DNA of 63,667 nucleotides, from the NCBI GenBank assembly GCA_016748015.1, contig JAAOMT010000479.1:647824-711490 (forward strand). Direction: 5' to 3'. Source of the DNA: Geosiphon pyriformis uo1 (lineage: Eukaryota; Fungi; Glomeromycota). Below are positions 19,847 through 63,667 of this stretch, in pieces; the first letter of the stretch is position 1, and every line of letters starts with the position of its first letter. A program made the position numbers and the translations under genes. The notes under the pieces are model-generated. The model was not told where the DNA came from, made no database searches, and saw only the letters and a list, made by a program, of their open reading frames with translations.

Positions 19847-22800
19847 GTAGTATTATCAATATATTATCAGGAATTGTATCATCATTAGCAAAAATACTAT
19901 TAGCAAGAATAACATTCCAAAGCCAACAAAAAAAACCGATTTATTAAGAACTTATAACAATTTCTTTGAAGAATTTAAATCATAATCACTAATACCATCA
20001 AAATTTTAATTACTATTATCTCAACCCAATTTTGCTGCTAATTCTTGGAAAAAAACTGACTCAGAAAAGGAGAAAAATAAGGATCAAGAATTTAATTACC
20101 AAAACCTAATTCTAAAAAACCCAGAAATCTAAACTCTAATTATTCCAATTCAGCAAAATCAGAACAATTCAAACACTACTTCTATTGTTCCTCAAAACTT
20201 ATTTTCAGTAATTGTAATTAATCTATTACCAGTTGTACTAATCACAAAACTGCAACAACAGCTGCAACCATCACTCCAACAACAACTTCAACAACTGATC
20301 ATAGTAACAATAACATATGTACTAATTACCAAATTAAAAAAATTTAATAGCAAAGAAGACAATGCCCAAGTATGACTAAATGATATTGTAAAGACAATTA
20401 CTGCTAATAATTGGGATAATGCCAAAGTTCTACAAGTCATTTCATATTTTTTACAAGATACTGCTAATTCATGATATCAAAGCTTGATTAACAAACTCAT
20501 TATCTTTGATGCATTTAAAAATAAATTTTTAAAATATTTTAGTAATAATAACAGTATTAATTATTTAGCAAATACTTTTACTACTATCAAACAAGAAGAT
20601 ATTGAAGCTGTTATCACTTATTTGGGATGTTTTTATTGAAATTTGTGACAAATACAAGCCATTGATGTGAATTATTTTACTGTGCCACAAATCTTAAACC
20701 AATTTATTTGTGGTCTATACAGTAGTTTTCTATAACATATATGTTCACTAGATTTACAAACACTCTAAGATGTAGTCATCCACACCAGAGATTTCAAATT
20801 GGCTGAGCTGAAAGTTAATTATACTCAAGTCATCAATTTAATAATAAATAGATTATCTGACTTGAACTTCAAGTTGAAACAATTTAGTGATTCTATTAAC
20901 CAAAAATTAGAGGAATACTTAGCTAACAATCAAGCAATATATCAATCTTCATAATGTTACAACAATCCAGAAACCTTTAATCAGTTCCAAAATCAGTCAT
21001 GTCTCTTTTCATCATCAATGCATTAATTATGAGTGCAAAAAACATGTATATGCCACAATTGTAATAAACAAAGTTATTTAAGAACTGATTGTTATACCAG
21101 AATTAATAATTAATAATTGGAAAATTAATATCAAAACCCCAATCTCTAATTTCATATTCCAAATTATCAACTAAATCAAGGATCATATTAACTTTATTAT
21201 ACACCAATAATGCAACAAGCAATATACTTACCACCAATTTATCAGTTTTTAACACCAGTAATATATCAACTACAGTTACAGGTCATCTATTAATCTCAAT
21301 TATTTCAAACATTACCACAAAATTCAGTTCAAATAACACCCAGAAACCAGACACCAAGAATTACCCATACCCAACAAAATTAGAAATCAGTAATAGTTAT
21401 GCACTAACTAATTTCCAGTTCATCAAGTCAACTATCAAAATCATGCCAGTGGAATTTGGAAACTGGGTACAACCAAAACCCAAATTTTCAGAACTATTTA
21501 AGTTTTTTGGTATTTTCAAAAATCACCACACTTAATTCATTGGAATCCAATCAAACCCAACTACTTATTAATAATATTCTACTGGCAACTATTACAGAAA
21601 ATAAATTGCTTACTGCAATATTCCTTTTTGAAATAGAAGCACTATTATTCAGTAAAGCTGCTTTTAACACAAAACCAATTACCATAATATACACTAATGC
21701 TAAAGTTAATAGCCATCCTATCAAGCTAATTCTTAATAGTAAGTCAGCAGATAACATCATTACATGACAACTCATGGATCAATTAGTGACTGAGTTGATT
21801 ATATTGCCAGCATTAGAATTATTACAGCAGATAAAACAACAAAGATTTTAATTGGCAAAATCAATAACTTTCTATTTGAAGTCAATAGTATCACAACATC
21901 TATCAAAGTTTTTATTATAGAAGCCACCTAGTATTAAGCACTAGTTGATAATGACTAGCTGTTTAAAACAAATACAATACTTGATTAGACTATACAAGAA
22001 CTACAGCTCAGCCAGAATGGTTAACATATTCAAGTATCTGCCACATACAGACACTTTAAACCAAACAACAATTCAGCACTACTAATTAAATTTAGGAAAG
22101 AAAAAAACAAATTTACCTAGGAAGCTTACCAAGTTTCCTGGGCCGAAAAAAAACACAATAAATTACCATTCATACTTAGCTGGAAAAAAAAGAGAAAAAG
22201 AAAGGAAAGAGAAAAAGAAATGGTCCAAACAACTATCTTTACATATACCCTATATATTACTACCAATCAAAGACAATTAACTTATTGTTAACCCAAATTA
22301 ATTAGTGTTGATTGTGACAAAAAATTGTTAACAATAAAGAATAGCCAATAGCAACCAAATATTATTGTTACTCATGTATTCTAAAAAAGTTTGAACAACT
22401 TAAGCAATAGAAAAAATGAAATAACAAGCCTTGTTTCACATGTGGAATGATTTTTCTTGATGAAAAAATATAGAACAACATTTTTGAATAAAAAGAAATA
22501 TGTAACAAAATATGTTAATACATGATTTTAATTAACAATTGGATATAAAAAGGGACTTCAATCAATAATGCCTGAAAACAAGCATTGAAACATTTGGAAA
22601 ACTATTCACATAATGAACACAAGATCTGAAGAATAATGAGTGCTAAAGTTAAAAATATTATATTTAGTAAACTACTAAAAATCAAAAACAACTCACTATT
22701 TCTTTTTGAATCTAAATATGTCCTAAACTTCAACATCTTTAATAATGTTAAAAATGATTTAGAACAATTCCATAAATATTATCAGAATCTAACACTGACA

Positions 22801-24516
22801 AGAAAAAAACAAGAACAATAGTTAAAAGAGCTAAACATCCAACTATGTGACTATTGTTTAATACCATGTGATTTCAAGTATTATAATAAGTATGATTTTA
22901 TCTACAATCTATCATCATACATAATCTATTTGATTCTTAAAAAAAAAAAGCCAATCAACAAATGTGCAGCAGAATTGGAATTGAAATTCAAGTCTGATTC
23001 AAATTTCAATAATAACAACAACAACAGTTTTAACTCTATTTATTATGGCAACAACAATAGCAATTCAAACTCTAATTACAATCTTGAACAATATATTGTA
23101 CTTTCAGATCTATTAATAGAGCAGAAACTGAAATAATTCAGTAATAATAATAAAGATATTATGTTAAAATACATACATAATACCAATACAGAGTTTAATC
23201 TTAGATATCCAGAAAAAACTGTCATTAAATTGGAACTATATTCACATACTAATATAGACCTAAAAATAACACTAGAAGTTTTGATAACAACAATAGTTTA
23301 GTTAGCATCTAAATCTAGTTTAGTAAAAAAAGATTAATATCAGAAGAAAAATAATTAATACAGAATATGTAAAAAATATTATTGCAATATTACAAAATAA
23401 ATCAGAAAAATCATATATAATTCAACCAAACAAAAAAATAGCACAGATAATATTCCTACCTCTAATAAAAATAGCCCAATTAGTTTTAGTAGAAAAAAGG
23501 AAAGAGTTAGAAATTAAAGTAAAAGAAATTAATAGATTTGGATTCATAGGTAAAATAGATATACCAGTCAATATAACAAAGAAAAAAACTATTAATAAAG
23601 AAAAAATTATTTTTACCAATTAATCAGTTTTTATTTTACCATATAACTAGTATATATTAGTAATAGAAAAAAAAGTAAGAGACCAATCTCAGATTTTTGA
23701 AGCAGAACCAACTAATTGTAAATCAAAGAAGATTGAAATTATTAATCTTTACATACCAGCCAAGAACTGTAAACATATCAAAATTTCTATCTACAACACA
23801 ATTAAAAACACCATCAAAATACTAAGCAGTATTATCATCAGATACTTAAGCATTAAAGTTAAAAACCAACCACTAAACACTATTCCAGATTTTTCACAGC
23901 TTTGTAAATACATGAATATTATATTACAAACAATATACAGATAAGAAGAATATTATTTGCTCTAATCAGAACAATTGGATTAAATAAACTTAAGAAACTT
24001 AGACCCACTTCAATATATGTAGTTTAAAATATTACTCAACAATTTTACTGATATTTTTGCCAGTAAAAATAAGTTTGGTAGAACTGATATTATTTAGCAT
24101 CAGATTAAAACTAAAGATATTATGTCAATTAAACAATGAACATACTGAGTACTACCAGCAAGCCATGAAATCATCCAACAGAGAATCAACAAAATGTTGG
24201 ACAATGGATTAATTCAATTATTAATGAGTTTATGGTCATTATTAGTGGTACTAATTCAGAAAAAAAATAGAAAAATCCACTTTTGTGTAAATTACAAAAA
24301 GCTCAACAGTATGACTTGGAAAAACAGCTATTTGACTCCACAAATTCAAAAACTATTCAATGTATTTAAAAAAAAGAAATAATTTTCAACATTAGATCTA
24401 AACAGTAGTTACTAACAAGTAGCCATAAATTCAGTTGACAAAGAGAAACAACATTCACAACCAAAAAAAAAACTTTGAATTTAATGTTATACCATTCAGC
24501 TTAATGAATACTTCAG

Positions 24517-26382: not shown

Positions 26383-28529
26383 ATATTAGCATAGAAGAAT
26401 TGGTTCAGATCATAAAGAAACTGCCAGATAACAAAGCTGCTGGTTTGTCTGACATTGTGAATAAGCTGTAAAAGCATTGTGGTTTTGAAGTTATGAATTG
26501 TCTTCTAGTTTTGCTGAATGTTTATTTGGTTGCTAGAACAGTTTCCATCTTGTAAAAAAGAGCATGAGTCTCCATGATTCTCAAACCATATGATTGGAAT
26601 GGAGTTTTAACTAATACAAAGCTAATTGTACTAATTAAGACTGCCAGAAAAATTTTATTTAAAATTCTTTTAGACCAGATCTTTCTGGTGTGCAGCAAGT
26701 TTAATATTCTTTAAGAGATAATTTTTTAGTGTTAAAGAGCATATTAACTCAATTTTCTGTTTTTGCAATTGGCTCAGTGGTCAAAGATGTTTTAAAAAAA
26801 AATAAAAAGCTGTAATTGGTCTTATAAAATATGTAAAAGACTTATAAATCAATGTGTTAATACCATTTAAGGAACAGTTTAAGACAAATTAAAATGTGTA
26901 ACCAGTTTATTGATTTTTTTGGCAGTATATATTAGAACAGAGTTAGCAAAATTATGACTGATTTTGGCCTCTTAAATAGTTATTACATACATGATAGACT
27001 GAATTAAGACAAAGTTTTTTTTCTTTTCCTTTGGTGTATATTTTATGATCTTTTTTTATGCAAAGTGAAAAGACATGAACATTTGTGTAGTTACTAAATT
27101 AATATAAGGTTTGTGACCACAACTGGCAGAATTAAAAACACAAATAAGAAAACATTATTTTTTGTGGTTGGTGTTTTCATTAATAACATTATCTGAATGG
27201 GGAATAGTTAGGCTTCAACTTAGTATATTTTGAATATTGTGAGTAAATTCTTCAAGATCAATAATATTTTGATTAATAATAATAAAAATGTGGCTATTCT
27301 TATTAACAAAAAAGTTAGGGTTGCTTTTTTGAATATATGTGGATGTCTTATTTTTATTGCCAAAAATGGTAAATTACACTGTTATTTAAGAATTTTTCTC
27401 TCCACTAATGGTCTCTCAAAACTTAGTTTGGCCAAAACTAATTCTGATGTCAGATTTTTTATGAATGTTGTTTTAAGAAAAGCTATTTCAGATAAGCAGT
27501 TTTGTTACTTGGTTTCTGCTGTTTTATAGCTTATAATCTGTTATTATACTCAATTTAGTTATGTTTTAGTTAATATTTATTACAAGTAGAATGTTTTGAT
27601 TAGAAAAAGATTGAAACATAAGACTAGGCTGCTTAGAGATTTTCCCAATAAATCTCTGTACCATCTGCTGTTGTACAATTTTAAATCTTTTGAACAATTG
27701 TAGGCTGAAGACAAAATGGCTTCTTTTGTGTCTTTTGTGAATTCAGAAGATATTTTTGGCTGGTTTTTTGATCATCATTTTCTGGATTTGCAGATTTTAG
27801 GCTGGGCTTTGGCTAATTCTCTGCAGTATTCTGTTAAGTTAAGAGTTAGTCCTGTAAACAATTTTCTTGCTGATATAGTTAAAATATTTCTGAACAATTT
27901 GCCTCAAGTTTTTTACAGTTTTAATAGGTTCTTGGTATCTGATATCTTGGGTGGAAAGTTGTATTATAAAGTGATGAATTCATTAAAGTGTTTTGGCATT
28001 GTATTTAAAAACAGACTTGTGAACAAGTATGATGTGTTAATCTCTTAAATAATATTTTAATGCTGAAAAAAATTGGACCCTAGGGGTTCTGCTTCTGTTT
28101 GGTTTGTTATAATGTCAAATTTTATGAAGGAATCAGCTTGTGTTGCTAAAAGTAAAGAGAATGTCTCTGATTTAGTGTCTTTAAGTGTTTTAGATTTAGT
28201 AAATTTTGGGTTGATTAAGAGTTTTTTGCATAAAGTTTGGACATATGTGTTTGATATGTACATTAATAGCTTACTGAAAAATTTGGGCTTGGTAGAAGTA
28301 ATAAGTAAAGTGGCTGCCTATTTTTCTAATATGGATATAAGTGTTGATATTAGTATTTCTGGTATAATCTCTTCTATAATGATTAAACTGCAAACTGTTG
28401 CTTTGGCTTTGGAATGTGTGTTGTTTTTTAATATTGTTGTTTTGCATCTTAACAGTCAGATAACTATCAATGTTTGTGCTTATAAACTTAGCTTAACTAA
28501 ACTGGACTTTTGCAATTATTGTTAAATAG
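26383..28529 (+). mobile_element. LINE copy A ORF2 (RT and start of RNase H), degenerate
   Basis: LPDNKAAGLS, SMILKPYDWNGVLTNT, decayed KAY.S, G(A)F(V)DD-like motif, then VAAYF..KLQTVALALECV. Continues at 38592-38790. Confidence 0.85.
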
Positions 28530-29361
28530 TGTTACTCATAAAAAGGAAAACAGATATAGGAAAATAATAGACCAATAAGAGAGTAGTAGTTAGCACATGA
28601 GCACATTGCTCAGCAATGTAGAGCAATATCAGAAATCATGGCACATGGTTCAGCAATGTGAAGCAATATTAGAAATCATGGCATATTGCTCAGCAATATA
28701 AGCATTGGTTGGGAAATTATAGCACATCATTCAAAAATGTGAGCAATCTCATAGAACCCAAATTATGTATATATAGTGATAGCATTAAAAGAAGAAAAGA
28801 GAGACCTCTCAGTTTAGATTTTATCTAAGCAACCTTCCAATTCACAAATATCAATAAATAATTATTTACTATTTCAATTGACTCTCTACTATCAACATGA
28901 AGTGTTGATAGTAATTGATACTTAACCATGTTGGAACAATAGCTCTTGATCATGGCTATTGACAAGATACTAACTTGCAATTGCTTTTGTTTATTTCTTT
29001 ATCTTCTTTTATTTTCTTTTATTTCTTTTTGTTATTTCTTTGGGGATTTACTAAATTGATTAAAAATTAAGCACTGAAATACAGATGTCATAGGGACTGG
29101 TAAAAACCCTGTGAAACAAGAGTAGAACACTCATAGATTTGAAGATAGCTTACCAAAAGAATTACCAGCCACCACGCTGAGAAAAAAATTTGATGAAACT
29201 GCAGTTTTGGGAAGCTACAGATAAAACCATTAATTAAATCTCTGTCTATTATACAAAAGACTTCATAAAAAAACCTTTAGATATCAACCCCAGAATACCA
29301 ACCAAGCACCAAGTTACAGATTTGTTATTTGATTTGAGACCCCAAATAATCATTTGTAATA
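28530..29361 (+). repeat. 5' LTR of element 3
   Basis: Collinear with 37760-38591; TG..(C>T)A termini; TATATATAG box. Confidence 0.95.
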
Positions 29362-29423
29362 TTTGGTGCTCTCTGTGAGATATAATCTTACAGAAAACCA
29401 GCACCAACAACAATTATCCAAAA

Positions 29424-32400
29424 GTGGCAGAATCCAAAAACATAGAAGCAAACCATTTAGGATTTGCCAAATCCTTGTTCTAACAGTACAGCCAACAATT
29501 AGGACTAAACAATAACCACTTTCTAGCAGAATCTGCCTTTAATTTCTACATCAATAATAAAATCACAGACTTCTTAGGAGGAACAGTTAACATTGAATCT
29601 GCAAGAGAAAATTTCTATACAGAATTATTTCAACATACCAGCTTACCAAGAAACTACAGTTTCACACCAATCATTAGGGAAATCAATCAAACCATTGAAA
29701 GATATACACAACAACAATTCCTAACACTTATGCAGACGAAGGCAAAGGAAGACTGCAAACACCAGCAGTGACGCCAAAACAAATACAACCACCTACTTGG
29801 AAGAAAACCAGAGTTGAATCACCAACAAACCCATCATATCACTATACACTTGGTAGCATCATCAATATCTTATCAACAGATGTATCCACATTACACATGA
29901 CATTAACATTTGGATGACTACCATTTTAAAGTAAACAAAAGAAAGCAGAATTACTAGAAACCTATGGCAATTATTTTGAAGGATTTAAATTGCAATTGCC
30001 AATACCATCAGAATTCTGATTACTGCCACCTTAACCAAATTTTGGAAATACGAGTCTCTAAGAGATAATGAAATCAGAAGAAAAAAAAGAAAAAAAAGAA
30101 GAAGAAGAAGAAAAAAAAAAAGAAGAAAAAGAAGAAAAAGAATCTGAAGATCAAAAATTTACTTACCAGAACCCAATTACTAGAAACCCGGAAATTGAAA
30201 CTCTGAAATTTCAAATGCAGCACAATTAGGACAATCAAAACTCCAAAACAATTAATCAGCAAAACTTATCTCCAGTAATTATTATTAATCAACTACCAAT
30301 TAAACTAATTATTGAACTGATTCAACAGCAGCCACTTTAACTGCCCCAACAATTACAACAGTCACTTCCACTGCCATAACAACAACTTTAACAACCACCA
30401 CAACAACAAATTGTAGCACCAATGGCATATGCTCCTATTGCCAAACTCAAAAAATTTACCAGCAAAGAAGACAATGCCCAAGTGTGGCTAAACGATGTGG
30501 AAAAAGCCATCACAGCCAACGAATAGAATGATGCCAGAGCCATGCAGGCCATTCCCTATTTTCTCTAGGATACCACCAATTTATGGTATCAAAGCTTGGC
30601 TAACAAACCCCAGAATTTCAATGCATTTAAGCTTGCATTCCTACAATACTTTAGCAATAATAATAGTATTAATCAGCTAGTAAATACTTTTACTACTATC
30701 AAACAAGGAGAAAATAAAGCAGTCACTACTTACCTAGGATGCTTCTATAGGAATCTGCACCAAATTCAAGCAATCCAGAATGACTATTTTACAGCATCAC
30801 AAATCTTAAACCAATTTATTAGAAATCTGCACAGTAGCATCCTCCAATGCATACATCCAATACATCCAGCAGACTTTCAAGCTACAGTTACCAATGTCAG
30901 AAATTTTGAAGCAGCTGAATTCGAAGCTAACTATGTCTAAGCCATAAATCTAGTGATGAATGAATCATCTGAATTGGATTCCAAATTGAAACAATTCAGT
31001 AATTCTATTAACTAGAAGCTTGAAAGATACTTAGCTGACAATCATGCAATTTATTAGCCACCCCAACAACGCAATAATTTAGAAATCACAAATTATACAC
31101 AAAATCAGTCATGTCCTTTATTATCATCCAATCAGCTGTGGCAGCAAGAAACATGTATCTGCCACTACTGTGGTAAACAAAAACATTTGAGAATCAATTG
31201 TTGGTTAAGAATAGAAAACCAATGATTGAGAGATCAATATCAAAACTCTGATCGCAGGTTTTCAACTCCAAGATATCAATTAAATGCAGAAATATATTAA
31301 CCAAATTACATACCTATAACACAGCCACAAATTTATCAACTGCCAATTTATCAGTCAACAGCATCTGTCATTTATTACCCACAGCCCCAACTCATTTATC
31401 AGCTATAGCTTCAGGTAATTTATCAGCCCCAACAAATTCAAACACCACTACAGAACTTACTTCAAAATGGAATTCAAAGGCTGAGACTGATACAACAAAG
31501 CTGGAGATTGTTGATGGTGGTTTATCAACTAATCTTCAGTTCCATGGCACAACCATCAAGATCTTGACAATAGAATTTAGGCACTGAGAACCTCCAAAAT
31601 AAGAATGCTTAACACTATTTAAGTCTCCTAATTATCCCAGAAGATGCCTCACCCAACAACCAGAAACCCAACCAACACAAACCACTTACCAACAATATAC
31701 TTCCAGCCACCATAACCAATAACAAATTGCTAGACACTATTTTTCTATTTGAATTTGAGGAAACCACACCAGTTCTATTATTCAATGGAGCTGTTCTTGA
31801 CACCAAACTGATTACCACCATGTACATTAATGCAAAGGTTGATGGTTATGCCATTAAACTGATACTAGACAGCAGATCAGCTGGCAGCATTATCACAAGA
31901 CAATTCATGGACCAATTAGGTCACCGAATTAATTGCACTGCCAGCACCAGGATCATAACTGCTGATGGAGCAACCAAAACTCCTATTAGTGAGATTGACA
32001 ACTTCCTCATTGAAGTTAACAGCATAATTGTACTAATCAAGGTACTAGTCATGGAAGCCACCCAATACCAAGCACTTATTGGTAACAATTGGCTGTCTAA
32101 AGTCAATGTGACACTTGATTGGAGCATGCAAGAGCTTCAACTTAGCCAGAACGGATGACATACACGCATATTTGCCATGTGTAGACACTTCAAGCCCACT
32201 ACCACACCACTAGTCCCACTTATCAAATTCGAAGAAGAAGAGAAAAAACCTACCTGAAAAGCCTACCAAGTTTTTTGGGCCGACACAGAACACAACGAGC
32301 TGCCGCCAATACCTTTGTGGAATGACAACAGCAAATGAAAGCAGAAAGAAGAACTTACTTGAAGTGCTGACCAAGACTGAAAAACCAACCACAATTCAGA

Positions 32401-35400
32401 AAAACCGACAGCTTGGGAATGAAATGAGAGGGAAAAAGAAAAAAGAAAAACGAAGGAAGTAAAGCACTACCAATTGCCATTTACACTTCTTACACATATA
32501 CACCAACACAACAATCAAGTTATCATTGACCAAAGCTGATATGCATTGATTGCAGCAAGAAATTGTCATCAATGGGTGTATGCTGTTGTGATGATGAGGA
32601 ATACCAAATGACATCCAATTTTTACTGCCATGCGTGTATCATAAAATGCTTTGGATAACTAAAACAACAAGAAAAATGGGACAATGAACCTTGTTTAGCT
32701 TGTGGGGAAACCTTACTTGACAAAAGAATGTGGAATGACATTCCTGAACAAAAAAAAATGTGTGACGCTTCGTGCCAATACACAATCTTCATCAGCAACT
32801 GGATTAAGAAAGGGACACCAATAGAAGCCGCCTGGAGAAGAACTGTACAGCAATTAGACAGTTGTTCACACAATAATGATAAGTTATGGAGAATGGCAAT
32901 AACCAAAATAGAAGAAGCATCACCTGAGGAAATCAGAAAAATCAAAAACAACCCACCAGAACTCATAGAACCTAACTGGGACCCAGAACCAGTCATAAAT
33001 TTTCTAGATTCAGAACAATTCCATGAACACTACCAGGAACTAGTGTTCACAAGAGAAGAGCAAGAGCAACACTTGGAGCAGTTAAATACTCAATTATGTC
33101 AACATTGCTTATTTCTCTGTGACTTTCAATATTGTAATGAGTGTAACCTTATTTACAATCCACCACTACGCATGATTTACATGATCCCAGAAGAAGATGA
33201 ACCAATGAGCAGCTACATATCAGAATTGGAATCAAATTTTAATCCCAATTCAAACTCCAACAATGACAACAACGAAAATAATGGCTTTAGCTCCATTCAA
33301 AATGGCAATGAAAATATCAATGATTTAGACTTCAATTCAAATCCTAAAATATACATTGCACTTCCTGATCTCTCTAAGGAACAGGAACTCAAATGGTATA
33401 GTAACAATAATGAAAGTATTATGCCAGAACATGTACATAATACTAATACAGAGTTTGATCTGAGATATTCAGGGAAAAATGCCATCAAATTGGAACCATA
33501 TTCATGCACATATATTGATCTTAAGATAGCACTGAAAATTCTAGCAACAACAATGGTCCAGTTAGCATTTAGAAGTAGTCTAGCAAAAAAAGGAATCAAC
33601 ATCAGAAGAAGAATAATTGACGCAGAATACATAGAAATATTATTACTATGCTACAAAATGATTCAGAAAAAGTATATATTATAAAGCCAAATGAAAAAAT
33701 AGCACAGGCAATATTCTTACCTCTGGTGAAAATAGCTTAGTTAGTGTCAGTAAAAAACAGAAAGGAATTAGGAATAACAGCAAGAGGAATACAAGAATTC
33801 AGATCCACAGGTAGAATAAATGTACCAGTTAATATGGCAGAGGAAGAGATTATTGACAAAGGAGAAATTATCTCAATCTGTCAATCAATCTCTATTCCAT
33901 CATATAACCAGTATATGTTAGCCATAAAAAAAGAAGTAAAGAATCAAGCTCAGTTGTTTGAAGCAGAAGCCACCATTTGCAAATTAGGAGAAATTGGATT
34001 TACTAATCTTTACATATCAGCCAAAAGCCCCAAAAACATCAAAATTTCCATCTACAACACAACGGGAAATGTTATTGAAATACCAAAAAGAACCATTATT
34101 GAATATTTAACCACTGAAGTTGAGGATCAACCACTAGACCATATTCCAAATTTTTCACAGCTTTGCAGATATGTGGACATCACATCACAAACCATCTATG
34201 GGCAAAGTAAATGTTATCTGCTCCAACCAGAACAATTGGAACAGATAAACATGGGGAATCTAGACTCACTTCAACAGATGCAACTAAAGATATTACTCAG
34301 CAATTTCAATGACATTTTTGCTAGCAAAAATAAATTTGGTCACACCAACATCATCTAATATCAGATTAAGACTGGAGATGCAATGCCAATTAAACAAAAA
34401 GCATACAGAGTACCACCAACCAGTCATGAGATCATTTGTCAAGAAATCAATCAAATGCTTAACAACAGGCTAATTCAGCCATTAATGAGTCTATGGTCAT
34501 CACCAGTAGTACTAGTCCAAAAAAAAATGGGAAAATCCACTTTTGTGTAGATTACTGGAAACTGAATGAAGTAACCAAAAGAGACAGCTACCCAATTTCA
34601 AAGATCCAAGAACTATTTAATGCTTTTGAAGAAAATAAATGGTTCTCAATACTAGATTTAGATAGTGGTTACTGGCAAATAGCCATGGATCCAGCTGACA
34701 AAAAGAAAACAGCATTTACCATAAAAGAAAGAAATTTTGAATTTGAAGTCATGCCATTTGGCTTGATAAATGCTCTAGCAACATTTCAACAGCTCATGGA
34801 AATTGTCTATACTGGACTACTGTAGAAATCAGTAGTTGTTTACTTAGATAACATAAATGTGTTCTCAAAAACATTTGATGATCATCTTTACCATCTTTAA
34901 CAAGTATTTAAAAGACTCAGACAGGCAGGATTGAAATTAAATACCAACAAATGCTTCTTTGGAAAAACAGAACTAAAATTCTTAGGACATGTTGTGAGCA
35001 AAGATGGCATCAAAACAAATACAGACAAGATTGAAGTTGTTAAGAACTTTCCAGTACCAAACAATCTTACAGAATTAAGAGCATTCTTGGGATTTGCAAA
35101 GTACTATCACCGCTTTATCAAAGACTTTTCTAAATTGACTCAGCCACTCCACCATTTACAAACCAAGAATGTAAAGTATGAATAGACAGAAGCTCAACAA
35201 GAAACATTTGACACACTAAGAAAAAAGCTTATTCAAGCTCCAGTGTTGATGTATCCAGATCACACCAAATCATTCATTATCACTACTGATACATCAGGTC
35301 AAGTGTTGGGAGCAGTACTATCACAGAAAAGACCAGATGGAAGAAAACATCCAGTAGCTTATACCAGTAGAAGTTTAAGTCCAGCTGAAAAGAATTATAG

Positions 35401-37056
35401 AATACCAGTATTAGAACACTTAGCAATCTATTGGGCAGTCATGAAATAGAAAGAATACTTGAGCCAAAAGTTTGAAATATATATGGATCACAAAGGATTG
35501 AATTCAATTCAGAAGCAAAAATTTGGAGATGACTACCATGTCAGATAGAAAATAAAACTGTCACCATTCAATTATACAGTATATTATAAAAAAGAAAAAG
35601 ACAATGGAAATGCTAATGGTTTGTCACAAATAAGACAAATCTAAAAACACTTCAACCCAAAAATATAACAAAAGATGAATATACAAAAATACCAACAACT
35701 TCAACATTATATAAATACCCAATTGTTTAAGGAGAAATTATCTCAAAAGGAACAAAACAACATAAAACAACAATCAAAATATTTTATCAATCATCAAAAT
35801 ATACTTTACCAGAAAAACAGAAGAACTCCAGACCAGCCAACAAGAATAATTACAGAACCAGAAAAAGAGACAATATTGTTCAATATGCATTTAGATTCAA
35901 CAGCAGGACATTTTCATAAAAAAACAACCATAGAAAGAACTAAAAAAAGATACTATTGGCCATCAATGTATCCAGACATCATCCAATATGTTCAAAATTG
36001 TGATGCTTGTCAGAGAAGAGGAGGAACAAAACCCAGTAAACTATTAAGACCAATCAAAATAGGACAACCATTTGATCACATTGGAATTGACTTAGTATAA
36101 CCATTAATAATCACCAACAGAGGCAACAGATATATTGCAGTAGCCATAGACTATCTCATTAAATGGCCAGAAGCAAAAGCCATTCAAAAAGCAGATGCAG
36201 AATCCGTTGCCAAATTTGTTCATTAAGATCTGATCTGTCAACATGGATGTCCAAAAGAATTATTATCAGATCAAAGAACTCACTTTGAAAATAGAACATT
36301 AGCAGAATTAAGCCAAAGATTTGGAATAAAAAGACCATTATCATCACCATACCATTTACAAACAAATGGGTTAGTGGAAAGATTTAACAAAACATTGTGT
36401 AAAACAATAGCCAAAATTAGCCAAGAAAACCAGGATAAATGGGATTTGTTTATACCATCTGTATTATTTGCTTATTGGACAATAAAACAAGATATTACAC
36501 AAGCAACATCATTTGAATTGGTATATGATAGAACAGCAACATTACCAGTTGAGATAGAGGTCAATACATATCTAATTGAACCAATAACAGAAGATAATTT
36601 CCAAGAAACATTGTTGAAAAGAACATATAACTTAATAGAAACACTAGAAAACAGATGACAAAAAGCAGCTAATAATATCCAATAGTTACAAGAAAGCAAA
36701 AAAAACAACACAATAACCAACTATCAGATAAATCAGTTGAATTTAAGATTGGAGACAAAGTACTATTACATTATATCAAAGCAGAAAAACAATGAAATAG
36801 AAAATTTGACTCCAAATAGGACAGACCATTTCACATAGAAAAAATTCTAGGAAATAGAGCTTATAAATTAAGATAAGACAACAAAATTTTAGCCAAAGCA
36901 GCACATAGTAATCGACTGAAACCATATCATTAGATAGTATCATCATCCACCAATAACATTCCACAACTGAGAGTACAAAGAATATTAGTTCAATCAGATA
37001 AGATTTCACAAGATCTGGAACCAATCATAGTTATTGAACCAATTATGTCAAATTGA
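29424..37056 (+). pseudogene. gag-pol of element 3: N-terminal domain, capsid, CCHC, protease, Cys-rich module, dUTPase, RT, RNase H, integrase with GPY/F-type C-terminus
   Basis: MAYAPIAKLKKF capsid at 30422; CHYCGKQKH..C; LILDS(R)SAG protease; HFCVDYWKLN / LDLDSGYWQ / YLD(N) RT; TDTSG RNase H; H..GHF..CDACQ, GIDLV, SDQ, VERFN integrase. Stops are mostly CGA/CAA/CAG/TGG transitions. Confidence 0.93.
33388..33815 (+). pseudogene. dut: dUTPase domain within Gypsy pol
   Basis: Five dUTPase motifs, decayed: (DAG)FDL, RSSLAKKG, IIDAEY, EKIAQ, RGIQ(G)F(G)STG. Confidence 0.9.
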
Positions 37057-37109
37057 ACAACCAAAAGTATATAAAGACACAGTATATGTGACAAAAGCAA
37101 CTAAGAAAA

Positions 37110-37745
37110 ATGGAAATACCAGATCATATTCACATTATAGCTCAACAATTGTTTTAGGCCTTAAGTCAACAACAGTTAGACATAGAAATTGTTATTAACA
37201 ACCAAATAATTTGCTATTAAAACACCCAAAGAAAGACAAAGAAGACACTATATCAGCAGCCACCAAAGAATAATAAAAACTAGACAGATAACTTAATAGA
37301 AAAAGTAAAGAACACTTTTGGGAAAATACCTATTATGGCACCAACAAAAGAGCTTACAAAAAAAAATTGGAAGCAATGAACAGAACAACTTCCAATATCA
37401 TATTGCTACTACCAGTTAGGTCAAAAGTTGAATATTCAGGAGTTGTATATCGACAAATCTAAGAAAATATTCAACCAAAACATAATACAGCAAATTGAAG
37501 AATTTATTGGAAAAAAAACAAATTTAATACTACATGTTAAAACAATGTACCAATTACACAACATATTTTGGAACTATCCAGAAATACTGTTACACTCAGA
37601 CATGGAGACCATAACCATTAATTAATGGGGAAGAATGAACAATACACAAGTAGAAGACATAAAAAACAGAGTTGAACAAACAATACTTGAAAAAGAAGTA
37701 TTAGAATTAATTCAAAATGAAGATTTTGACAGAGCTTAATATTAA
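37110..37745 (+). pseudogene. Extra ORF (ORF3, ~211 aa, unknown function) between integrase and PPT
   Basis: One indel-free frame, MEIPDHIHIIAQQLF..ELIQNEDFD..Y*. Three of its internal stops are sense codons in the second copy at 38865-39500. Confidence 0.7.
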
Positions 37746-37759
37746 AAAAGAAAGAATAA

Positions 37760-38591
37760 TATTACTTATAAAAAGAAAAACAAATATAAAAAAATAGTAA
37801 ACCAATAAGAGAGTAGTAGTTAGCACATGAGCACATTGCTCAGCAATATAGAGCAATGTCAAAAATTATGGCACATGGCTCAGCAATAGGGAGCAATATC
37901 AGAAATTATGGCACATTGCTCAGCAATATGAGCATTGCTTGGGAAATTATAACACATCACTCGAGAATGTGAGCAATCTCATAGAATCCAAATTATGTAT
38001 ATATAGTGGTAGCATTAAAAGAAAAAAAGAGAGACCTCTCAGTTTAGATTTTATCTAAGCAATCTTTCAATTCACAAATATCAATAAATAATTATTCACT
38101 ATTTCAATCCACTTTTCACTATCAACACTTTATGTTGATAGTAATTGATACTTAACCATGTTAGAACAATAGCTTTTGATTATGGCTATTGATGAGATAC
38201 TAACTTGCAATTGCTTTTGTTTATTTCTTTATTTTCTTTTATTTTCTTTTATTTCTTTTTGTTATTTTTTTGGGAATTTACTAAATTGATTAAGGATTAA
38301 GCACTGAGATACAGACATCATAGGAACTGGTAAAAGACCTGTGAAACAAAGGTAGAACACTCATAGATTTGAGGATAACTTACCAGGAAAATTACCAGCC
38401 ACTATGCTGAGAAAAAAATTTGACAAAACTGCAGTTTTGGAAAGCTATGGATAAAACCATCAATTAAATCTCTGTCCATTATACAAAGAACTCTACAACA
38501 AAACCTTCAGATATCAACTCCAGAATACCAACCAAGCACCAAGTTACAGATTTGTTATTTGATTTGAGACTCCAAATAATCATCTATAACA
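37760..38591 (+). repeat. 3' LTR of element 3
   Basis: Collinear with the 5' LTR; ends TAACA, followed by the TSD. Confidence 0.95.
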
Positions 38592-38790: not shown

Positions 38791-40461
38791 TTACTATTCT
38801 TTTATTGGTCTACTATTTTCCTATATCTGTTTTTCTTTTTATGAATAACATTATCCCCTCCTTTTTAATATTGAGCTTTATCGAAATCTTTGTTTTAAAT
38901 TAATTCTAATACTTCTTTTTCAAGTATTGTTTGTATGACTCTGTTTTTTATGTCTTTTATTTGTGTATTGTTTATTCTTCTCCATTGGTTAATGGTTATA
39001 GTCTCCATGTCTGAGTGTAATAGTATTTCTGGATAGTTCCAAAATATGTTGTGTAATCAGTACATTGTTTTAACATGTAGTGTTAAATTTGTTTTCTTTC
39101 CGATAAATTCTTCAATTTGCTGTATTAAGTCTTGATTGAATATTTTCTTGGATTTGTCGATATACAATTCCTGAATATTCAACTTTTGATCTAACTGGTA
39201 GTAACAATATGATATTGAAAGTTGTTCTGTCCATTGCTTCCAATTTTTTTTTGTAAGCTCTTTTGTTGATGTCATAATAGGTATTTTTCCAAAAGTGTTC
39301 TTCATTTTTTCTATTAAGTTATCTGTCTAGTTTTTATCATTCTTTGGTGGTTGTTGATATGGTGTCTTCTTTGTCTTTCTTTGGGTGTTTTAATAGCAAA
39401 TTATTTGGTTGTTAATAATAATTTCTATGTCTAACTGTTATTGACTTAAGGCCTAGAACAATTGTTGAGCTATAATGTGAATATGATCTGGTATTTTCAT
39501 TTTTTTTAGTTGCTTTTGTCACATGTACTGTGTTTTTATATACTTTTGGTTGTTTAATTTGATGTGTTTGGTTCAATAACTATAATTGGTTTCAGATTTC
39601 GTGAAATCTTATCTGATTGAACTAGTATTTTTTGTACTCCCAGTTGTGGAATGTTATTGGTGGATGATGATACTATCTGGTAATATGGTTTCAGTCAATC
39701 ACCATGTGCTGCTTTGGCTAAAATTTTGTTGTCTCATCTTAATTTATAAGTTCTATTTCCTAAAATTTTTTCTATGTGAAATGGTCTGTTCCATTTGGGG
39801 TCAAATTTTCCACTTTATTGTTTTTTTGCTTTGGTACAATATAATAGTACTTTGTCTCCAATTTTGAATTCAACTGGTTTATCTGATAGTTGGTTATTGT
39901 GTTGTTTTTTTTGCTTTTTTTGTGACTATTGGATGTTATTAGCTGCTTTTTGTCATTTGTTTTCTAGTGTTTCCATTAAGTCATATGTTCTTCTTAACAA
40001 TGTTTCTTGGAAATTATATTCTGTTATTGGTTTAGTTGGATATATATTAATCTCTATCTCAACTGGTAATATTGCTGTTTTACCATATACCAATTCAAAT
40101 AATGTTGCTTGTGTGGTATCTTGCTTTATTGTCCAATAAGCAAATAATACAGATGGTATAAACAAATCCCATTTGTTCTGGTTTTCTTGGCTAATTTTGG
40201 CTATTGCTTTACACAGTGTTCTGTTGAACTTTTCCACTAACCCATTTGTTTGTGGATGGTTTGGTGATAATAGTGGTCTTTTTATTCCAAATCTTTGACT
40301 TAATTCTGCTAATGTTCTATTTACAAAGTGAGTTCTTTGATCTGATAATAATTCTTTTGGACATCTGTGTCGACAAATCAGATCTTGATAAATGAATTTA
40401 GCAACAGATTCTGCATCTGCTCTTTGAATGGCTTTTGCTTCTGGCCATTTAATGAGATAGT
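38790..40461 (-). mobile_element. Inverted fragment of Gypsy family A (integrase core, ORF3, PPT, first ~60 bp of LTR)
   Basis: Reverse-complement match to ~36149-37820; intact PPT AAAAAGGAGGGGATAA abutting TGTTATTCAT. Confidence 0.92.
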
Positions 40462-42179: not shown

Positions 42180-42466
42180 ATTTATTATAACTAATTAAAT
42201 AAGATAATTTTAATTAAGATATATTTATTTAAAAAAAAAACTTTTTTATACAATTTATTATTATATTGTTTTAAATTTTTTTTTTGCTAATATTTTAACA
42301 AATTAAATATTTTGTTAAATTACAAATTATTTTAATAAACTATTAAATATTTTAGTAAATTTCTAAATATTGTAATAAATTTTTAAATACTATATAATTT
42401 AGAATAATTTATAATTTGATTATTATATTTAATAATACTTGTATATTATACAAATTAGCTTATTAA

Positions 42467-45400
42467 ATAGAATTATATTGCTTTTTGTCTCCTTAATTTT
42501 ATAATCACGACCAGAACAAAGAGTAAAAAAGCTGCACCTAATATTTTTTCTGAGATATCTAATAAAATTTCAACCAGAAAAGCTCTTTCTGTGGTAGAAA
42601 CAACTAGGCAAAACGTTTTAGAAGCCTTCCTTTTACTTAATAATTGTAAAAAGCTGTCTTTGGTAGTTACTAAAACAATTTCCTTATCTTTGGCTGGTTT
42701 TTTTTCAGTTAAAGTTCTTTTAAAGAGACACACTTGGGTTAATTTCAGTGTTGCCTTTATCTCTACTAAAAGCCCAAGAGTGTTTAATAATAGACCAGTT
42801 AACAAGCTGGTATTTTTTCTATAGCTTTAATATCTGGTGCTGCTAGCATTTTTTTTTCAAAAAAAATGGTCAAAAAAACCAAAAGTTCAGAAAAATGAGG
42901 GCAGTTACTGTTACTTATAAAAAAAAACAGATATAGAAAATAGTAGACCAATAAAAAAGTAGTAGTTAGCATGTGAACACATTGCTCAGCAATGTAGAGC
43001 AATGTCAGAAATTACAACACATTGCTTAGCAATATAGAATAATATTAGAAAATTAGAGCACATTGCTTAGCAATATGAGTATTGCTCAAAAAATCATAGC
43101 ACATTATTTGAGAATGTGAGCAATCTTGTAGAACATAAATTTATGTATATATAGCAGTAGTATTAGAAGCTAGAAAATTAGTCAATTAAGCTTAAAGTCA
43201 AGAAAACTAAGAGTCAGTAGGACTTTCAGAGTTAATTAGACTCACAAGTCATAATTATTAAATACTCTTCCTTCAAAAGATAGAATACTATAACTTGAAG
43301 TGAAATCACTTCCATATTAATGAAATTAGCCATTATCTTTAAATCTATGTTATTATTCACTACTTAACCTGCTGGCACAATAGCTCTTAATTACAGCTAT
43401 TAACAAGACACTTATTTCTTATTTTATTTTCTTTATTTCTTTATTTTCTTTTATTTTCTTTTGTTATTCACTAAATTGATTAAAAAGATTAAGCACCAAG
43501 TTACTGATGTCAGGATATAGCACTGGTAAAAGACCCAGAAATAAGGATAGACACTCTATAGAAGGATAGCTTACCAGAAGATTGCCGGCCACCATGCTAA
43601 GAAAAAAATTAACAGAATTATGATTCCGGGAGACTACAAATAAAACAACCTATGAATCTCTGTCTATTATACAAAGAGCTCAACCAAAATCTTCAGACAA
43701 ACAACACCTTCAGATATTCCCAAACATTTATATTAATTGAGCACCAAGTTATGGATTTGTTATTTGCTTTGAAATCCCAAATAATCATCTATAATATTAC
43801 TTGTTTCTGCTATTGTTATACTGAACTCTTTTATAGTTTCCAATAAGATCTTAAATGAGATTTTTATAGTATTATCCAGCATGTTATCCAAGATAGACCA
43901 AGATTAACCACTGGTTGTGTTGCCAAATATGGAGTCTTCTAGTAGATTCTTAACAGTTTTAGAAGCAAAGCAATTATCTCCTATGGTATTACCTGTTTCT
44001 GAGAACTGAACTGACCAAATAGAAACTAAATTATTTCTCTTCTGGTTTCTGGTGCTGCTGCTGATAGTGTTTGAGAAACTATTACTAGTCATCAAAAATT
44101 TGCTGGGTGGATGGCCATCACTCTAGTGCCTAGTGCTATTTTTAAGATCAAATTGGCTTATGTTAAGGCTGTTTTTTAGTCTATACATGGTTTTTTGAAT
44201 GCAAAATTTGTTTTTAAAGACAATGTGAGACTCTTTTGTGTGAAGTTTGCTTTTCTAAGTTCTTTGGATGCTGTATTTTTGGTTGAGCTTATAAACTCTG
44301 TTTGTTTTGCCTCTCTTAAAATTGCCAAGTCTTTGGTGGTTCCTGAATCTAGTTTTTTTCCTGCTGCTATTGCACTGTATGATGTGCTTTTGGGTGTGTC
44401 TGCTGTTAATATTAAGTCAGCTCTTGGTGTTTTTGGTAAAATTTCTCATGTCATGCTGAAACCTGTTAGTATTTGGCAATATGTAATTGTTTACTTTAAA
44501 AAATTGAATGCTTCTGCTTCTGCTCTCACCCACTAGTCAATTTTGGTGGACAAAAATAGTGTTTGTATTCTTCTCCTTATTAATTAAAATAAGACAATTT
44601 TGTTTTGTAATTGGTTTAAGGCCAAGTTAATCAATCTCTCTTCTGACTATACTGCCTTTGAGATTAGTAATATAATCTTCCAGGTTGGTGGCCAGACTTG
44701 TTTTATTCCTTGTTTGCCTGATTTTGGTCGTTATTTCTGGTTTGCTCTGATTATGTTTGGTTTCTAAGCTGATTTGAACTCTGCAGTTGTCAAAACTGAT
44801 ATCTTAAGAAAATGCCATATTTGATGAGAAACTCCTGGTTGTCAATACTGCTTTAGGTATCAAGAAGTGGGCCATTTGGCTGTTAACTGCAAAGTTTCTC
44901 TGTCTCCCCCTCTTAAGGCTCTCAAGATATTTAAAACATATTTTGTGAATAGTGTTTCTTATGCAAAAGCTTCTGCTTTCTTGAATTTTTCTGAGTTTTT
45001 TCTTCTGGTAGCTTCTATTTCTCTTTTTATGATTGTTAGTAATTCCTTGGTGTCTTCTCAGTTGGCTTCTTTGGAGTCTGATTTGGTCAAGCTTTCTGCT
45101 TTGGTTAAATCTATTGTTAAACCAGTTGGTTTCTTGGTCAAATTGTTCAAACAATTTATTAATGAGAATTTGGTCTCAAGCAGTAAACTTGGTCTTAAGG
45201 TCAATGAAGTTATGATACATTTGGGTTCTTTTAGTAAAATTATTGATAAGTTGGAAAGAAAAATGGTTTTTTTAAAAAAAAAGTGCTGCATAAAGGATAT
45301 TAATATGTCTGGTAATTCAGAGCACCCAGTTGGCTTAGATGATGAAGTGTTTTCTAACTTGATGTCTCTTTGAGAACATGAATCTATTAATGTTAAAGCT

Positions 45401-52790: not shown

Positions 52791-52812
52791 AAATTATATT
52801 AAAAAAACTATG

Positions 52813-58400: not shown

Positions 58401-58598
58401 AACTGACCCAATGGCAAAAATAGGAAACTGAATTAAGGTCTTTTTTAACACTAAAAAGTTATTACCACTAAAAACATCAAATTTACTATAAGTTAAAGAT
58501 ATTCAATCAGAAAAGATTTTTTGGACTGTTTTGATCAAAGCAATAGGCCTAGTGTTTATTAAAACACCATTCTATTCATAAGGTTTAAGAATAATTGA
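55481..58598 (-). mobile_element. LINE copy D, ORF2 3' part (RT-RNase H-CCHC) and tail, interrupted by Gypsy family B
   Basis: LVLQDMHKAYNSIDW, AAGAFIDDTIW, HRYLGIF, VFTDESLK..TELQAVALAL..YSNSQSAI, CLLCGKVKLSDYVFTC; stop at 55627. Confidence 0.92.
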
Positions 58599-61500: not shown

Positions 61501-63667
61501 CTCTTCTCATAACCACACCACTATTCCACCAGTCTGAATTGCTGAAAATGCCAATCTCTCTGATATTTTTTCTTTTGAATTTGAAGCAAATGAATCACCA
61601 TTCTTACTTAGCAATGCAGCGGCTAATGAGCAAAAAGCCATTACTGCAATGTACACAGAAGCTGAAGTAGAAGGAAAGCCAATTCGCTTGATCCTAGACA
61701 GTAGATCCACCAGAAGCATTATTACCTACCAGTTAATGCAACAATTGAAAAGAAATGTAGACCGACCAGCTCAAACAGTAATCGTCACTGCCGATAGCAT
61801 GAAAAAGACCCCAGTAGGAGAAATTGACAATTTTCCATTCACTCTTGATGGAATCACCATTCCAGTCAAAGTTCTTGTAATGGACACACCCCAGTACCAA
61901 GCTCTCATCAGAAATGATTGGCTTCAAAAAGCCAATGCTAATCTGAATTGGGAAACACAAGAGTTAACAATCTTCTACCAAGAACAACATGCCTGGATAT
62001 CTGCCATTTGTGGTACATTCAACAAACACTCTGAAAAAGCCCCGGCTTTTGAATTTGAACCAGAAGAAGAAAAACCAATAATCGAAACATTTATGGCTCT
62101 TAGATCAACGTCCAACTGGGCCGATGAAACAGAACAAAAACATTTTACCCTACACACTAAACCCGAAACCTCTGGATGGAATATACCTTACTCAAAACCC
62201 GAACCAAGAAAACAACGCCCCTATATTCCCCTTAAATGTAAGGACTGCCACAAGAAATTATCGTCAATGGAAGCCTGCATTTCACCTGAAGAAGAATATG
62301 AGAATTATACTTGTTATTACTGCAAGGCTTGCCACAGAGAGCGATGGGGCCATCTAATAAAAAGAAGCGGAAAATGGGACAACACCCCTTGTTTGACTTG
62401 TGGAAATATGCTACTGGAAGAATGCAATTGGATTGATGTAGCAATGAGAGGAGGCATCTGCGATCAGACCTGCCAATATGCTTTATCAATTCAGAAAAAG
62501 TAAAAAGAGGAACACCCTTTAATGCAGCATACAACAGTGCTCTCAACAAACTTTATCACTACCCTCATGATGCCGAGATGATTTTCGACTTAGCAATGGC
62601 ATTAATTAATGGAGCTACCAAAGAAGATGTTTGTCAAATGAAGGAAGCAGAATACATTGAATACACTATGGAATTAGCTAGATTCGATTACGAAGATGAA
62701 GTAGAAGTCTACCACCAAATTGCAAGTCACACCTACCCAACTCATGAAGCTCAAATTCAATGATTAGAGCAAATAAACATTAAGCTATGTGAAGAATGCA
62801 TTATGTCTTGCGATAAACAATGGTGTCCTGAATGCTATGCTCTTAGTATCCCCTTGCCCAGCAAAAATGATGAGAATGAAATTGAATTTAGAGAACCTGA
62901 AGAAACAGAAGAAATTAAAACAACACCCATCTACCTTATCAAAAATCAGCCTGCCTTACAACTTAAGTACTTCAACAACAATGGACAAGGAATAAAACCC
63001 GAAAAAGCACACGAAATTGATGCTGGATATGACCTAAGATATCCAGGCAAGGATACTCTTGTTCTCAAACCCAAATCTCTCACAAAAATCAATCTCAAAA
63101 TTGCACTTGAAATTCTGCCAGGAACAATGGTTCAAATCACCTTTCAGTTCTTTCTGACAAGCAAAGGAATTAATGTTAGAGGAAGAATAATCGATGTTGG
63201 ATATACTGGAGACATAACAGTGATGCTTCAAAATGAAACTGACAAATCATTCAAGATTGAACATGCTGAAAAAATTGCCCAAGCTATCTATCTACCCCTA
63301 ATCAACATTTCGGGTTTGCAACTAGTCAATCAAAGAGAGCAATTAGGAAAAAGCAATAGAGGAACCCAAGGTTTTGGTTCAACTGGACGATTCACAGTTC
63401 CAGTTAATATAGCTCTTAACACACAGAATGAATCCCACCAGATTCTCAGACTTCCACAACTGATTACTATCTCACTCTTTGGAGAACATCTGGAAATCTA
63501 CACCTGCCCAAAGCCAACAACCACACAACAAATTTTTGAGTCCAATGAACAAGTCTGCTTGGAACATAATATTTTGATCTCAAACATTTATATTCCAGAA
63601 GGAACAAAGAAAGTCCAAGTTACTTTTTACAACCCCAATAATTACCCCATAATTTTATTAAATAACT
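58599..63667 (+). mobile_element. Gypsy family B element, 5' part (LTR, gag, protease, Cys-rich module, dUTPase); runs off the window
   Basis: LTR 58599-59575; PBS TGGTGCTCTCCCACGA at 59578; capsid MTTYIAKIPEFNG; CHYCGISGH(W)KRDC; RLILDSRS; gag and protease share one frame. Confidence 0.93.
62965..63390 (+). pseudogene. dut: dUTPase domain, family B
   Basis: AHEIDAGYDL, GRIIDVGYTG, EKIAQAI, RGTQGFGSTG; motif II decayed. Confidence 0.93.

What the first reader, a model, noticed from the sequence alone, without database searches (positions are those of the whole stretch)
32540..33815. Gypsy lineage with an unknown multi-zinc Cys-rich module plus dUTPase between protease and RT
Seen in three elements of two families (~22300-23555, 32540-33815, 62237-63390): CxxC-KKLSSM-C..YCxAC..KWDNxPCLxCG..W..CDxxCQY..GTP..H, a helical stretch, then LCxxCxxxCDxQxCxEC, followed by a five-motif dUTPase. 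The Cys spacing is kept although the A and B LTRs are dissimilar and intervening residues diverge, implying selection. Known: dUTPase capture is typical of beta- and non-primate lentiviruses and ERV-L and is sporadic in LTR retrotransposons; I recognise no family for the Cys module. Inference: an accessory cassette for counter-defence, chromatin reading or ubiquitin-ligase hijack, paired with uracil avoidance, in a genome that hypermutates repeats.
Basis: partly seen in the sequence, partly recalled or inferred. Interest (0 to 1): 0.85.

Follow-up and report, generated by a model that had tools for sequence, protein, structure and literature searches.

The report
Three-zinc module beside retrotransposon dUTPase
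Jumping genes in a fungus carry an unnamed, conserved 215-residue cysteine-rich domain directly in front of a dUTP-destroying enzyme, and this predicted zinc-binding domain likely works as an adaptor that docks the enzyme where the element copies itself.

Summary
Confirmed. Three decayed Ty3/Gypsy copies carry protease, a ~215-aa Cys-rich module, dUTPase, an unnamed ~110-aa region and RT, in that order. All 240 listed homologues of two searches are Geosiphon pyriformis gene models, falling into about seven groups; one undecayed relative (P0268, unnamed ENA assembly) has the same layout. Thirteen Cys in three fixed spacings persist across groups. Between window copies B and C, synonymous sites are near saturation (pS 0.72-0.88) while pN in the Cys clusters (0.34-0.37) resembles protease and dUTPase, so the module was under purifying selection. 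No Pfam, PHROG, NCBIfam or PDB family fits. AlphaFold gives a confident helical bundle and a first finger weakly like LIM/ZZ/ClpX fingers; the module is net acidic. dUTPase between protease and RT is already known in fungal and rotifer Gypsy elements. Best guess (0.4): a protein-binding adaptor that docks the dUTPase; host-chromatin binding is the main rival. The proposed link to repeat hypermutation is not supported, because that decay hits both strands. This scan noted other Cys/His modules beside Gypsy dUTPases in other genomes; it had no look-alike of this one.

The parts
28525..29359 (+). 5' LTR of element B
   Evidence: 835-nt direct repeat of 37755-38589, 90% identical; 77 transitions, 8 transversions
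29364..29379 (+). Primer-binding-site-like TGG-led stretch after the 5' LTR; the same first ten letters follow element C's LTR
   Evidence: sequence; tRNA identity not tested
30425..31201 (+). gag: capsid, then a CCHC zinc knuckle at 31160-31201
   Evidence: Pfam Ty3_capsid and Retrotrans_gag above cutoff; knuckle read
31793..32182 (+). Aspartic protease (decayed)
   Evidence: Pfam gag-asp_proteas E 9e-8
32533..33177 (+). Cys-rich module of copy B (~215 codons, one stop at 32656)
32542..32637 (+). Site 1, C-x2-C-x24-C-x2-C; predicted treble-clef-like zinc finger
   Evidence: spacing in 16 of 16 rows with all eight Cys; model pLDDT 51-81 by block; Z 3.0-3.9 to LIM, Ada2, ClpX and RING fingers
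32692..32775 (+). Site 2, C-x2-C-x19-C-x3-C, running into the first long helix
   Evidence: fold not resolved (pLDDT under 50 at model residues 48-79)
32776..33096 (+). Helical bundle, mostly acidic towards its end
   Evidence: pLDDT 84-93 over model residues 81-140; charge by segment; best Z 5.0, generic
33097..33144 (+). Site 3, C-x2-C-x8-C-x2-C with a fifth, less conserved Cys
   Evidence: spacing in 27 of 27 rows with the four Cys; pLDDT under 50
33373..33815 (+). Trimeric-type dUTPase, decayed and frameshifted in this copy
   Evidence: Pfam dUTPase weak here (E 0.03), E 2e-19 in gene model P0002, E 2e-20 in P0268
33816..34150 (+). Unnamed ~110-aa region between dUTPase and RT
   Evidence: B vs C profiles prob 95.6; no Pfam
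34463..36930 (+). RT, RNase H, integrase with SH3-like tail; no chromodomain hit
   Evidence: Pfam RVT_1, RT_RNaseH, Integrase_H2C2, rve, weak SH3_Tf2-1
37110..37736 (+). Extra reading frame after integrase (decayed), no family
37755..38589 (+). 3' LTR of element B
22290..23555 (+). Copy A: heavily decayed module and dUTPase
62222..63390 (+). Copy C (other family; LTR at 58599-59575): module 62222-62860 and dUTPase 62959-63390

Best explanation
These Gypsy elements encode a conserved three-cluster cysteine module directly in front of their dUTPase, and the module likely binds zinc and likely acts as a protein-binding adaptor that docks the dUTPase in the particle where reverse transcription takes place. 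Shown: the domain, its fixed place in Pol, its Cys spacings, purifying selection between families, an undecayed natural example. Predicted: three zinc sites, a treble-clef-like first finger, a helical bundle. Inferred: module and dUTPase stay fused after protease cleavage; the partner is capsid, RT or integrase; the benefit is low dUTP at the site of cDNA synthesis. The window copies themselves are dead. Confidence that the domain is real and was selected is about 0.9; the figure below is for the docking mechanism.
For: Order PR-module-dUTPase-post-RT never varies in 372 of 372 proteins examined; 198 of them reach into the dUTPase (all were found through the module and most are fragments). 13 Cys kept in 29/40 to 40/41 of covering rows, exceptions mostly Tyr. 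14 of 17 B-majority Cys columns are Cys in C against 89 of 209 columns overall (Fisher p 7e-4). B vs C: pS 0.72-0.88, pN 0.34 and 0.37 in the Cys clusters, 0.50 in the helical part, 0.32 protease, 0.29 dUTPase. First finger overlays weakly on LIM, Ada2, ClpX and RING fingers, which are mostly protein-binding (recalled). Net charge -5 to -16 in 8 of 9 rows, 0 in the truncated P0285, unlike a basic nucleocapsid. Precedent: betaretroviral NC-dUTPase fusion, proposed to attach the enzyme to sites of RT synthesis and found to contact IN, capsid and NC (PMC4531489 section 9); extra Zn knuckle next to dUTPase in rotifer Juno elements (PMC5408684 passages).
Against: No direct evidence of any partner. 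Neighbourhood in a polyprotein does not show a shared job. Variable linkers of about 35-65 residues separate module and dUTPase and could hold a cleavage site. The NC precedent works through basic, nucleic-acid-binding knuckles that this module lacks. Fold matches are weak (Z under 4; Foldseek E over 1) and sites 2 and 3 are not resolved. No sister element with dUTPase but without module, or the reverse, was sampled, so co-evolution is untested.
Confidence: 0.4

Rival explanations
1. The module is a separate host-facing accessory protein: it would read chromatin, steer integration or blunt silencing, and sits beside the dUTPase only because this part of Pol tolerates inserts.
For: 215 residues with three sites is large for a tether. 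First finger resembles Ada2 and LIM fingers. The integrase tail has no chromodomain hit. The host silences or mutates repeats heavily: CpG observed/expected 0.00-0.34 in the repeat blocks against 0.71-1.03 in the first 12 kb. One row (P0285) has a sub-cutoff match to a PHD-like family (E 0.002).
Against: The PHD-like His and fifth Cys are not conserved. Pol products are made in small amounts and packaged (established knowledge). No host homologue appeared among the hits seen.
Confidence: 0.3
2. The module binds nucleic acid: fingers 1 and 2 with their following helices would recognise the element's RNA, cDNA or LTR, bringing the dUTPase along as in NC-dUTPase or regulating the element.
For: Finger 1 (+1 to +5) and helices 89-115 (0 to +3) are mildly basic; each of the first two Cys clusters runs into a helix in the model, the layout of nuclear-receptor and GATA fingers (recalled); site 3 has the spacing recalled for the RecR finger.
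Against: Net acidic overall; no GATA, nuclear-receptor or RecR entry among the listed fold or Pfam rows, which does not exclude them.
Confidence: 0.18
3. The module is a RING-like or adaptor protein that would hijack a ubiquitin ligase to destroy a host restriction factor.
For: RING and U-box chains appear among weak matches to finger 1 (IRF2BP2 Z 3.0, rmsd 2.6 over 41).
Against: No conserved His at the RING position, sites 1 and 2 are 11-20 residues apart with other spacings; the matches are no better than those to LIM or ClpX fingers.
Confidence: 0.06
4. The module is a functionless passenger or spacer carried along by copying.
For: Within families the changes are mostly the transition decay seen everywhere in these repeats; every window copy is broken.
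Against: pN far below pS between families, Cys enrichment among conserved columns, open frame with all 13 Cys in P0268, while flanking linkers cannot be aligned.
Confidence: 0.04

Closest known systems
dUTPase-bearing fungal Ty3/Gypsy elements (PosPlaTy3-5 of Postia placenta; Phanerochaete and Tuber Tmt1 elements cited there; PMC2864245, passages read)
   Same: Fungal Gypsy with a dUTPase in Pol; in PosPlaTy3-5 between PR and RT
   Different: No multi-Cys module is mentioned in the passages read; that survey concerns chromodomain-bearing elements, and element B's integrase tail gave no chromodomain hit
Juno LTR retrotransposons of bdelloid rotifers (PMC5408684, passages read)
   Same: dUTPase between PR and RT with an extra zinc motif beside it
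   Different: Juno has one Zn knuckle after the dUTPase; here three all-Cys clusters and a helical bundle lie before it
Betaretroviral NC-dUTPase fusion (MPMV, MMTV; PMC4531489 section 9 read)
   Same: A zinc-binding domain directly N-terminal to a trimeric dUTPase; model for docking the enzyme at reverse transcription
   Different: NC is Gag-derived, basic and 81-95 residues; this module lies after the protease, is acidic, about 215 residues, and the element keeps its own Gag knuckle
Treble-clef zinc fingers (LIM, Ada2 N-terminal finger, ClpX zinc-binding domain; class name recalled)
   Same: Model residues 1-46 overlay at rmsd 1.9-3.2 over 35-46 residues, Z 2.7-3.9
   Different: Ligand pattern and spacing fit none of these families; no sequence match

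Membership tests
Ty3/Gypsy (Metaviridae) LTR retrotransposon | Pol order PR-RT-RNase H-integrase | tested here: met
   Pfam hits in that order along element B
Ty3/Gypsy (Metaviridae) LTR retrotransposon | Two LTRs, primer-binding site, capsid-type gag | tested here: met
   LTRs 90% identical, TGG-led site after the LTR, Ty3_capsid; no clear target-site duplication seen
Chromovirus clade | Chromodomain at the integrase C-terminus | tested here: not met
   Tail gives only a weak SH3_Tf2-1 hit and ends about 40 codons later; tested on decayed copy B only
Homotrimeric dUTPase (PF00692) | Five conserved motifs (motif list recalled) | tested here: met
   Commonest residues in 60 B-type and 75 C-type rows; P0268 matches profile 8-129 of 129, E 2e-20; not intact in any window copy
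Homotrimeric dUTPase (PF00692) | dUTP hydrolysis | not testable with these tools
   needs an assay
LIM domain | Two fingers two residues apart, third ligand His (pattern recalled) | tested here: not met
   All-Cys ligands; 11-20 residues between sites 1 and 2
LIM / treble-clef fold | Knuckle, hairpin and helix around one zinc | tested here: inconclusive
   Site 1: Z 3.3-3.7, rmsd 2.1-2.3 over 37-39 residues to LIM chains; site 2 not resolved in the model
RING finger E3 | C3HC4 or C3H2C3 cross-brace spacing (recalled) | tested here: not met
   No conserved His among ligand columns; spacings 2-24-2 and 2-19-3; no Pfam RING hit
PHD / extended PHD finger | C4HC3 or HC5HC2H ligand pattern (recalled) | tested here: not met
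   One sub-cutoff hit in P0285 (18.8 vs 29.1 bits); the His and extra Cys are absent from P0268 and the His from B and C
Betaretroviral NC-dUTPase | Basic Gag-derived CCHC nucleocapsid fused to dUTPase | tested here: not met
   Module is all-Cys, net acidic and downstream of the protease
Betaretroviral NC-dUTPase | Fusion survives protease processing in the particle | not testable with these tools
   needs processing or particle proteomics

The most novel reading that the evidence does not exclude
The module is a new kind of retrotransposon accessory protein: a three-zinc reader built into Pol that engages host chromatin or silencing machinery in a fungus that mutates its repeats in all cytosine contexts, doing the job that chromodomains do in other fungal Gypsy elements and helping to explain the LTR expansion in Geosiphon.
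Probability: 0.25. Interest if true: 0.75.

Novelty: new variant of a known kind. Interest (0 to 1): 0.45.

Why it matters
It defines an unnamed, selected ~215-residue domain that lies behind hundreds of 'hypothetical protein' gene models in Geosiphon pyriformis (472 representative hits at E up to 0.001), and supplies an undecayed natural copy that can be expressed. The role of dUTPase in LTR retrotransposons is described as unclear (PMC2864245); a zinc module fixed beside it, echoing NC-dUTPase and Juno, makes the docking idea testable. If the partner is a host factor instead, it would be a new accessory function inside Pol.

Tried and rejected
Known families for the module: no Pfam hit above cutoff in 23 of 23 rows of A1 or in the module part of P0268 and P0285; none in PHROGs or NCBIfam for the module in 5 proteins; PDB sequences best E 0.25. 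Folds: model 1 (decayed P0162, pLDDT 58.7) gave no Foldseek match at E up to 0.001 in PDB or BFVD and best Z 6.0 to unrelated helical proteins; model 2 best Z 5.0. Sites 2 and 3 were barely tested by these searches, so absence of a match does not show a new fold. Relatives elsewhere: none in phage records, JGI metagenomes or IMG/VR by module or dUTPase patterns; the P0268 module found only itself among 93 candidates of 585-1862 aa. The 322 profile hits below rank 150 were not seen, so distant homologues (for example in Ambispora) are not excluded. Idea that the region after the dUTPase is a degenerate second dUTPase: not supported by shallow profile comparisons (prob under 1), not folded. Idea that sites 1-3 are internal repeats: not supported (prob up to 3). 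Binding of module to dUTPase: no prediction is available, so it stays open. ESM Atlas: no result. No whole genome was held, so copy number and youngest copies were not measured; no RNA holder listed. Translation of 22900-23180 minus showed nothing relevant. The Geosiphon genome paper was not held; it and its supplements may mention these domains. PMC3248453 passages had no mention of dUTP or zinc.

Full report
Observation. Element B is full length: LTRs at 28525-29359 and 37755-38589 (90% identical), gag, protease, the module (32533-33177), dUTPase (33373-33815), an unnamed region, RT, RNase H and integrase (Pfam). Copy A is a more decayed relative of B (66-70% DNA identity; 10 stops in 22330-22920). 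Copy C belongs to another family with no DNA-level match to B. Every window copy is broken, and none has an intact five-motif dUTPase; the five motifs (list recalled) are the commonest residues in 60 B-type and 75 C-type gene models.

Host and spread. The B module found 136 proteins among 227 candidates and the C module 236 among 334; all 120 listed in each search are Geosiphon pyriformis gene models. A 23-row profile hit 472 of 1.84 billion representatives at E up to 0.001; 150 were listed and 322 not seen. Of 19 newly listed hits looked up, chosen mostly for divergence, 18 are Geosiphon and one, P0268, is an unnamed protein from an ENA assembly. P0268 (1064 aa) reads protease, module, dUTPase, post-dUTPase region and the start of RT without a break and without the decay pattern. 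The 372 proteins fall into about seven Geosiphon groups whose representatives are 30-54% identical in the module (two C groups 82%), with P0268 at 33-49%; in a 25-row tree P0268 is sister to the C groups (99/96). A published survey reports striking LTR expansions in Geosiphonaceae and Ambisporaceae (PMC11952901, passages). No relatives were found in phages, IMG/VR or JGI metagenomes.

Anatomy. Three Cys clusters have fixed spacings: C-x2-C-x24-C-x2-C and C-x2-C-x19-C-x3-C in 16 of 16 rows with all eight Cys, and C-x2-C-x8-C-x2-C in 27 of 27 rows with those four. In the 57 rows aligned to P0268, the 13 Cys columns are kept in 29 of 40 to 40 of 41 covering rows, and most exceptions are Tyr, the product of a single G-to-A change. 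The domain order never varies in 372 of 372 proteins; 198 include dUTPase and 113 protease (all were found through the module, most are fragments of mis-spliced gene models). AlphaFold on the P0268 module with 58 rows gave mean pLDDT 69.2, a confident helical bundle (residues 81-140), a moderately confident first finger and unresolved sites 2 and 3. Foldseek found nothing at E up to 0.001. Residues 1-46 overlay on an Ada2/Gcn5 chain (Z 3.9, rmsd 3.1, 46 residues), LIM domains (Z 3.3-3.7, rmsd 2.1-2.3, 37-39), the ClpX zinc-binding domain (Z 3.2, rmsd 3.2, 39) and a RING (Z 3.0, rmsd 2.6, 41); that these are treble-clef fingers is recalled. The helical part reaches only Z 5.0 with unrelated proteins. 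The module is net acidic, -5 to -16 in 8 of 9 rows, with a mildly basic first finger.

Selection. Between window copies B and C, synonymous differences are near saturation (pS 0.72-0.88 over protease, module and dUTPase) while pN is 0.34 for sites 1-2 (85 codons), 0.37 for site 3 (28), 0.50 for the helical part (95), 0.32 for protease (119) and 0.29 for dUTPase (144). Post-insertion decay inflates pN, so this is conservative. Fourteen of 17 B-majority Cys columns are also Cys in C against 89 of 209 columns overall (p 7e-4). Within a family the variation is mostly decay and says little; dN/dS among young copies could not be measured.

Decay and the dUTPase. LTR and inverted-copy pairs differ by transitions at 7 to 34 per transversion; the C/T-variable share is 0.66 for CpG, 0.38 after T, 0.17-0.28 after other bases. 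Contigs of one run laid on 32500-33900 differ at 297 places, 262 of them transitions, split 143 purine and 119 pyrimidine (this run may be the source sample). Both strands are hit, which points to change in integrated DNA.

Mechanism. I commit to an adaptor that docks the dUTPase in the particle (0.4). Shown: a selected domain fixed in front of the enzyme. Predicted: zinc sites, a protein-binding type of finger, acidic surface. Inferred: the fusion persists and binds capsid, RT or integrase. The precedent is the betaretroviral NC-dUTPase, which contacts IN, capsid and NC and is proposed to hydrolyse dUTP at the site of RT synthesis (PMC4531489 section 9). Against it: no partner evidence, a linker that may be cut, and a size more like a stand-alone accessory protein. 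Rivals: host chromatin or anti-silencing factor (0.3; no chromodomain hit on the integrase tail), nucleic-acid binder (0.18), ligase hijack (0.06), passenger (0.04).

What is known. dUTPase between PR and RT is in print for Postia PosPlaTy3-5, with Phanerochaete and Tuber elements cited (PMC2864245 passages), and for rotifer Juno, Vesta and TelKA, Juno with an extra Zn knuckle after it (PMC5408684 passages). I found no description of this module: searches for Geosiphon with dUTPase gave 0 papers, Glomeromycota with LTR retrotransposon and dUTPase gave only PMC2864245, and searches listed nothing on it by title or abstract start. The Geosiphon genome paper was not held and no supplements were read. 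Earlier notes of this scan describe other Cys/His modules beside Gypsy dUTPases in other genomes; look-ups by sequence found no look-alike of this one. Those notes are unchecked leads; they moved me towards the docking reading.

Verdict. A real, selected, unnamed domain in a known kind of element: new variant of a known kind, interest 0.45. The most novel reading not excluded, a Pol-embedded reader of host chromatin or silencing, has probability about 0.25 and would merit 0.75.

Noticed in passing
window 12000-63667 (repeat blocks): Transition-rich decay in all cytosine contexts with CpG highest and a TpC bias, on both strands. A preprint passage says RIP signatures were not detected in Gigaspora margarita or Mucoromycotina (10.1101/2021.03.30.436303), so a RIP-like or methylation-driven process in Geosiphon deserves a genome-wide look.
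   Followed up: partly
window 37110-37736 (+) and 38874-39500 (-): An extra ~209-codon frame between integrase and 3' LTR, 87% identical in an inverted second copy; no Pfam family above cutoff.
   Followed up: partly
window 33816-34150 and 63385-63666: Unnamed ~110-aa region between dUTPase and RT, shared by B, C and P0268; weaker constraint (pN 0.47, pS 0.68); not shown to be a second dUTPase.
   Followed up: partly
window 18870-19846: An LTR of family C (93% identical to 58599-59575) lies among the A-type element pieces and is not followed by the primer-site motif, like a solo LTR.
   Followed up: no
window 36150-37818 and 38792-40461: The 3' part of a B-family element lies inverted right after B's 3' LTR, 91% identical.
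   Followed up: no
window 3503-4561 (-): Host gene piece with an indoleamine 2,3-dioxygenase match (Pfam E 4e-71) in the CpG-retaining first 12 kb.
   Followed up: no
window 42446-45650 and 52785-55098; 26433-27898, 48186-49302, 57283-58598: Further repeat families with no match to the Gypsy queries used; not identified.
   Followed up: no
P0268 residues 604-737: The best PDB sequence match of the undecayed dUTPase is the 1f7d/1dut entry (E 4e-17; recalled as feline immunodeficiency virus), ahead of other viral and cellular enzymes (E 1e-12 or weaker); no tree was built.
   Followed up: no
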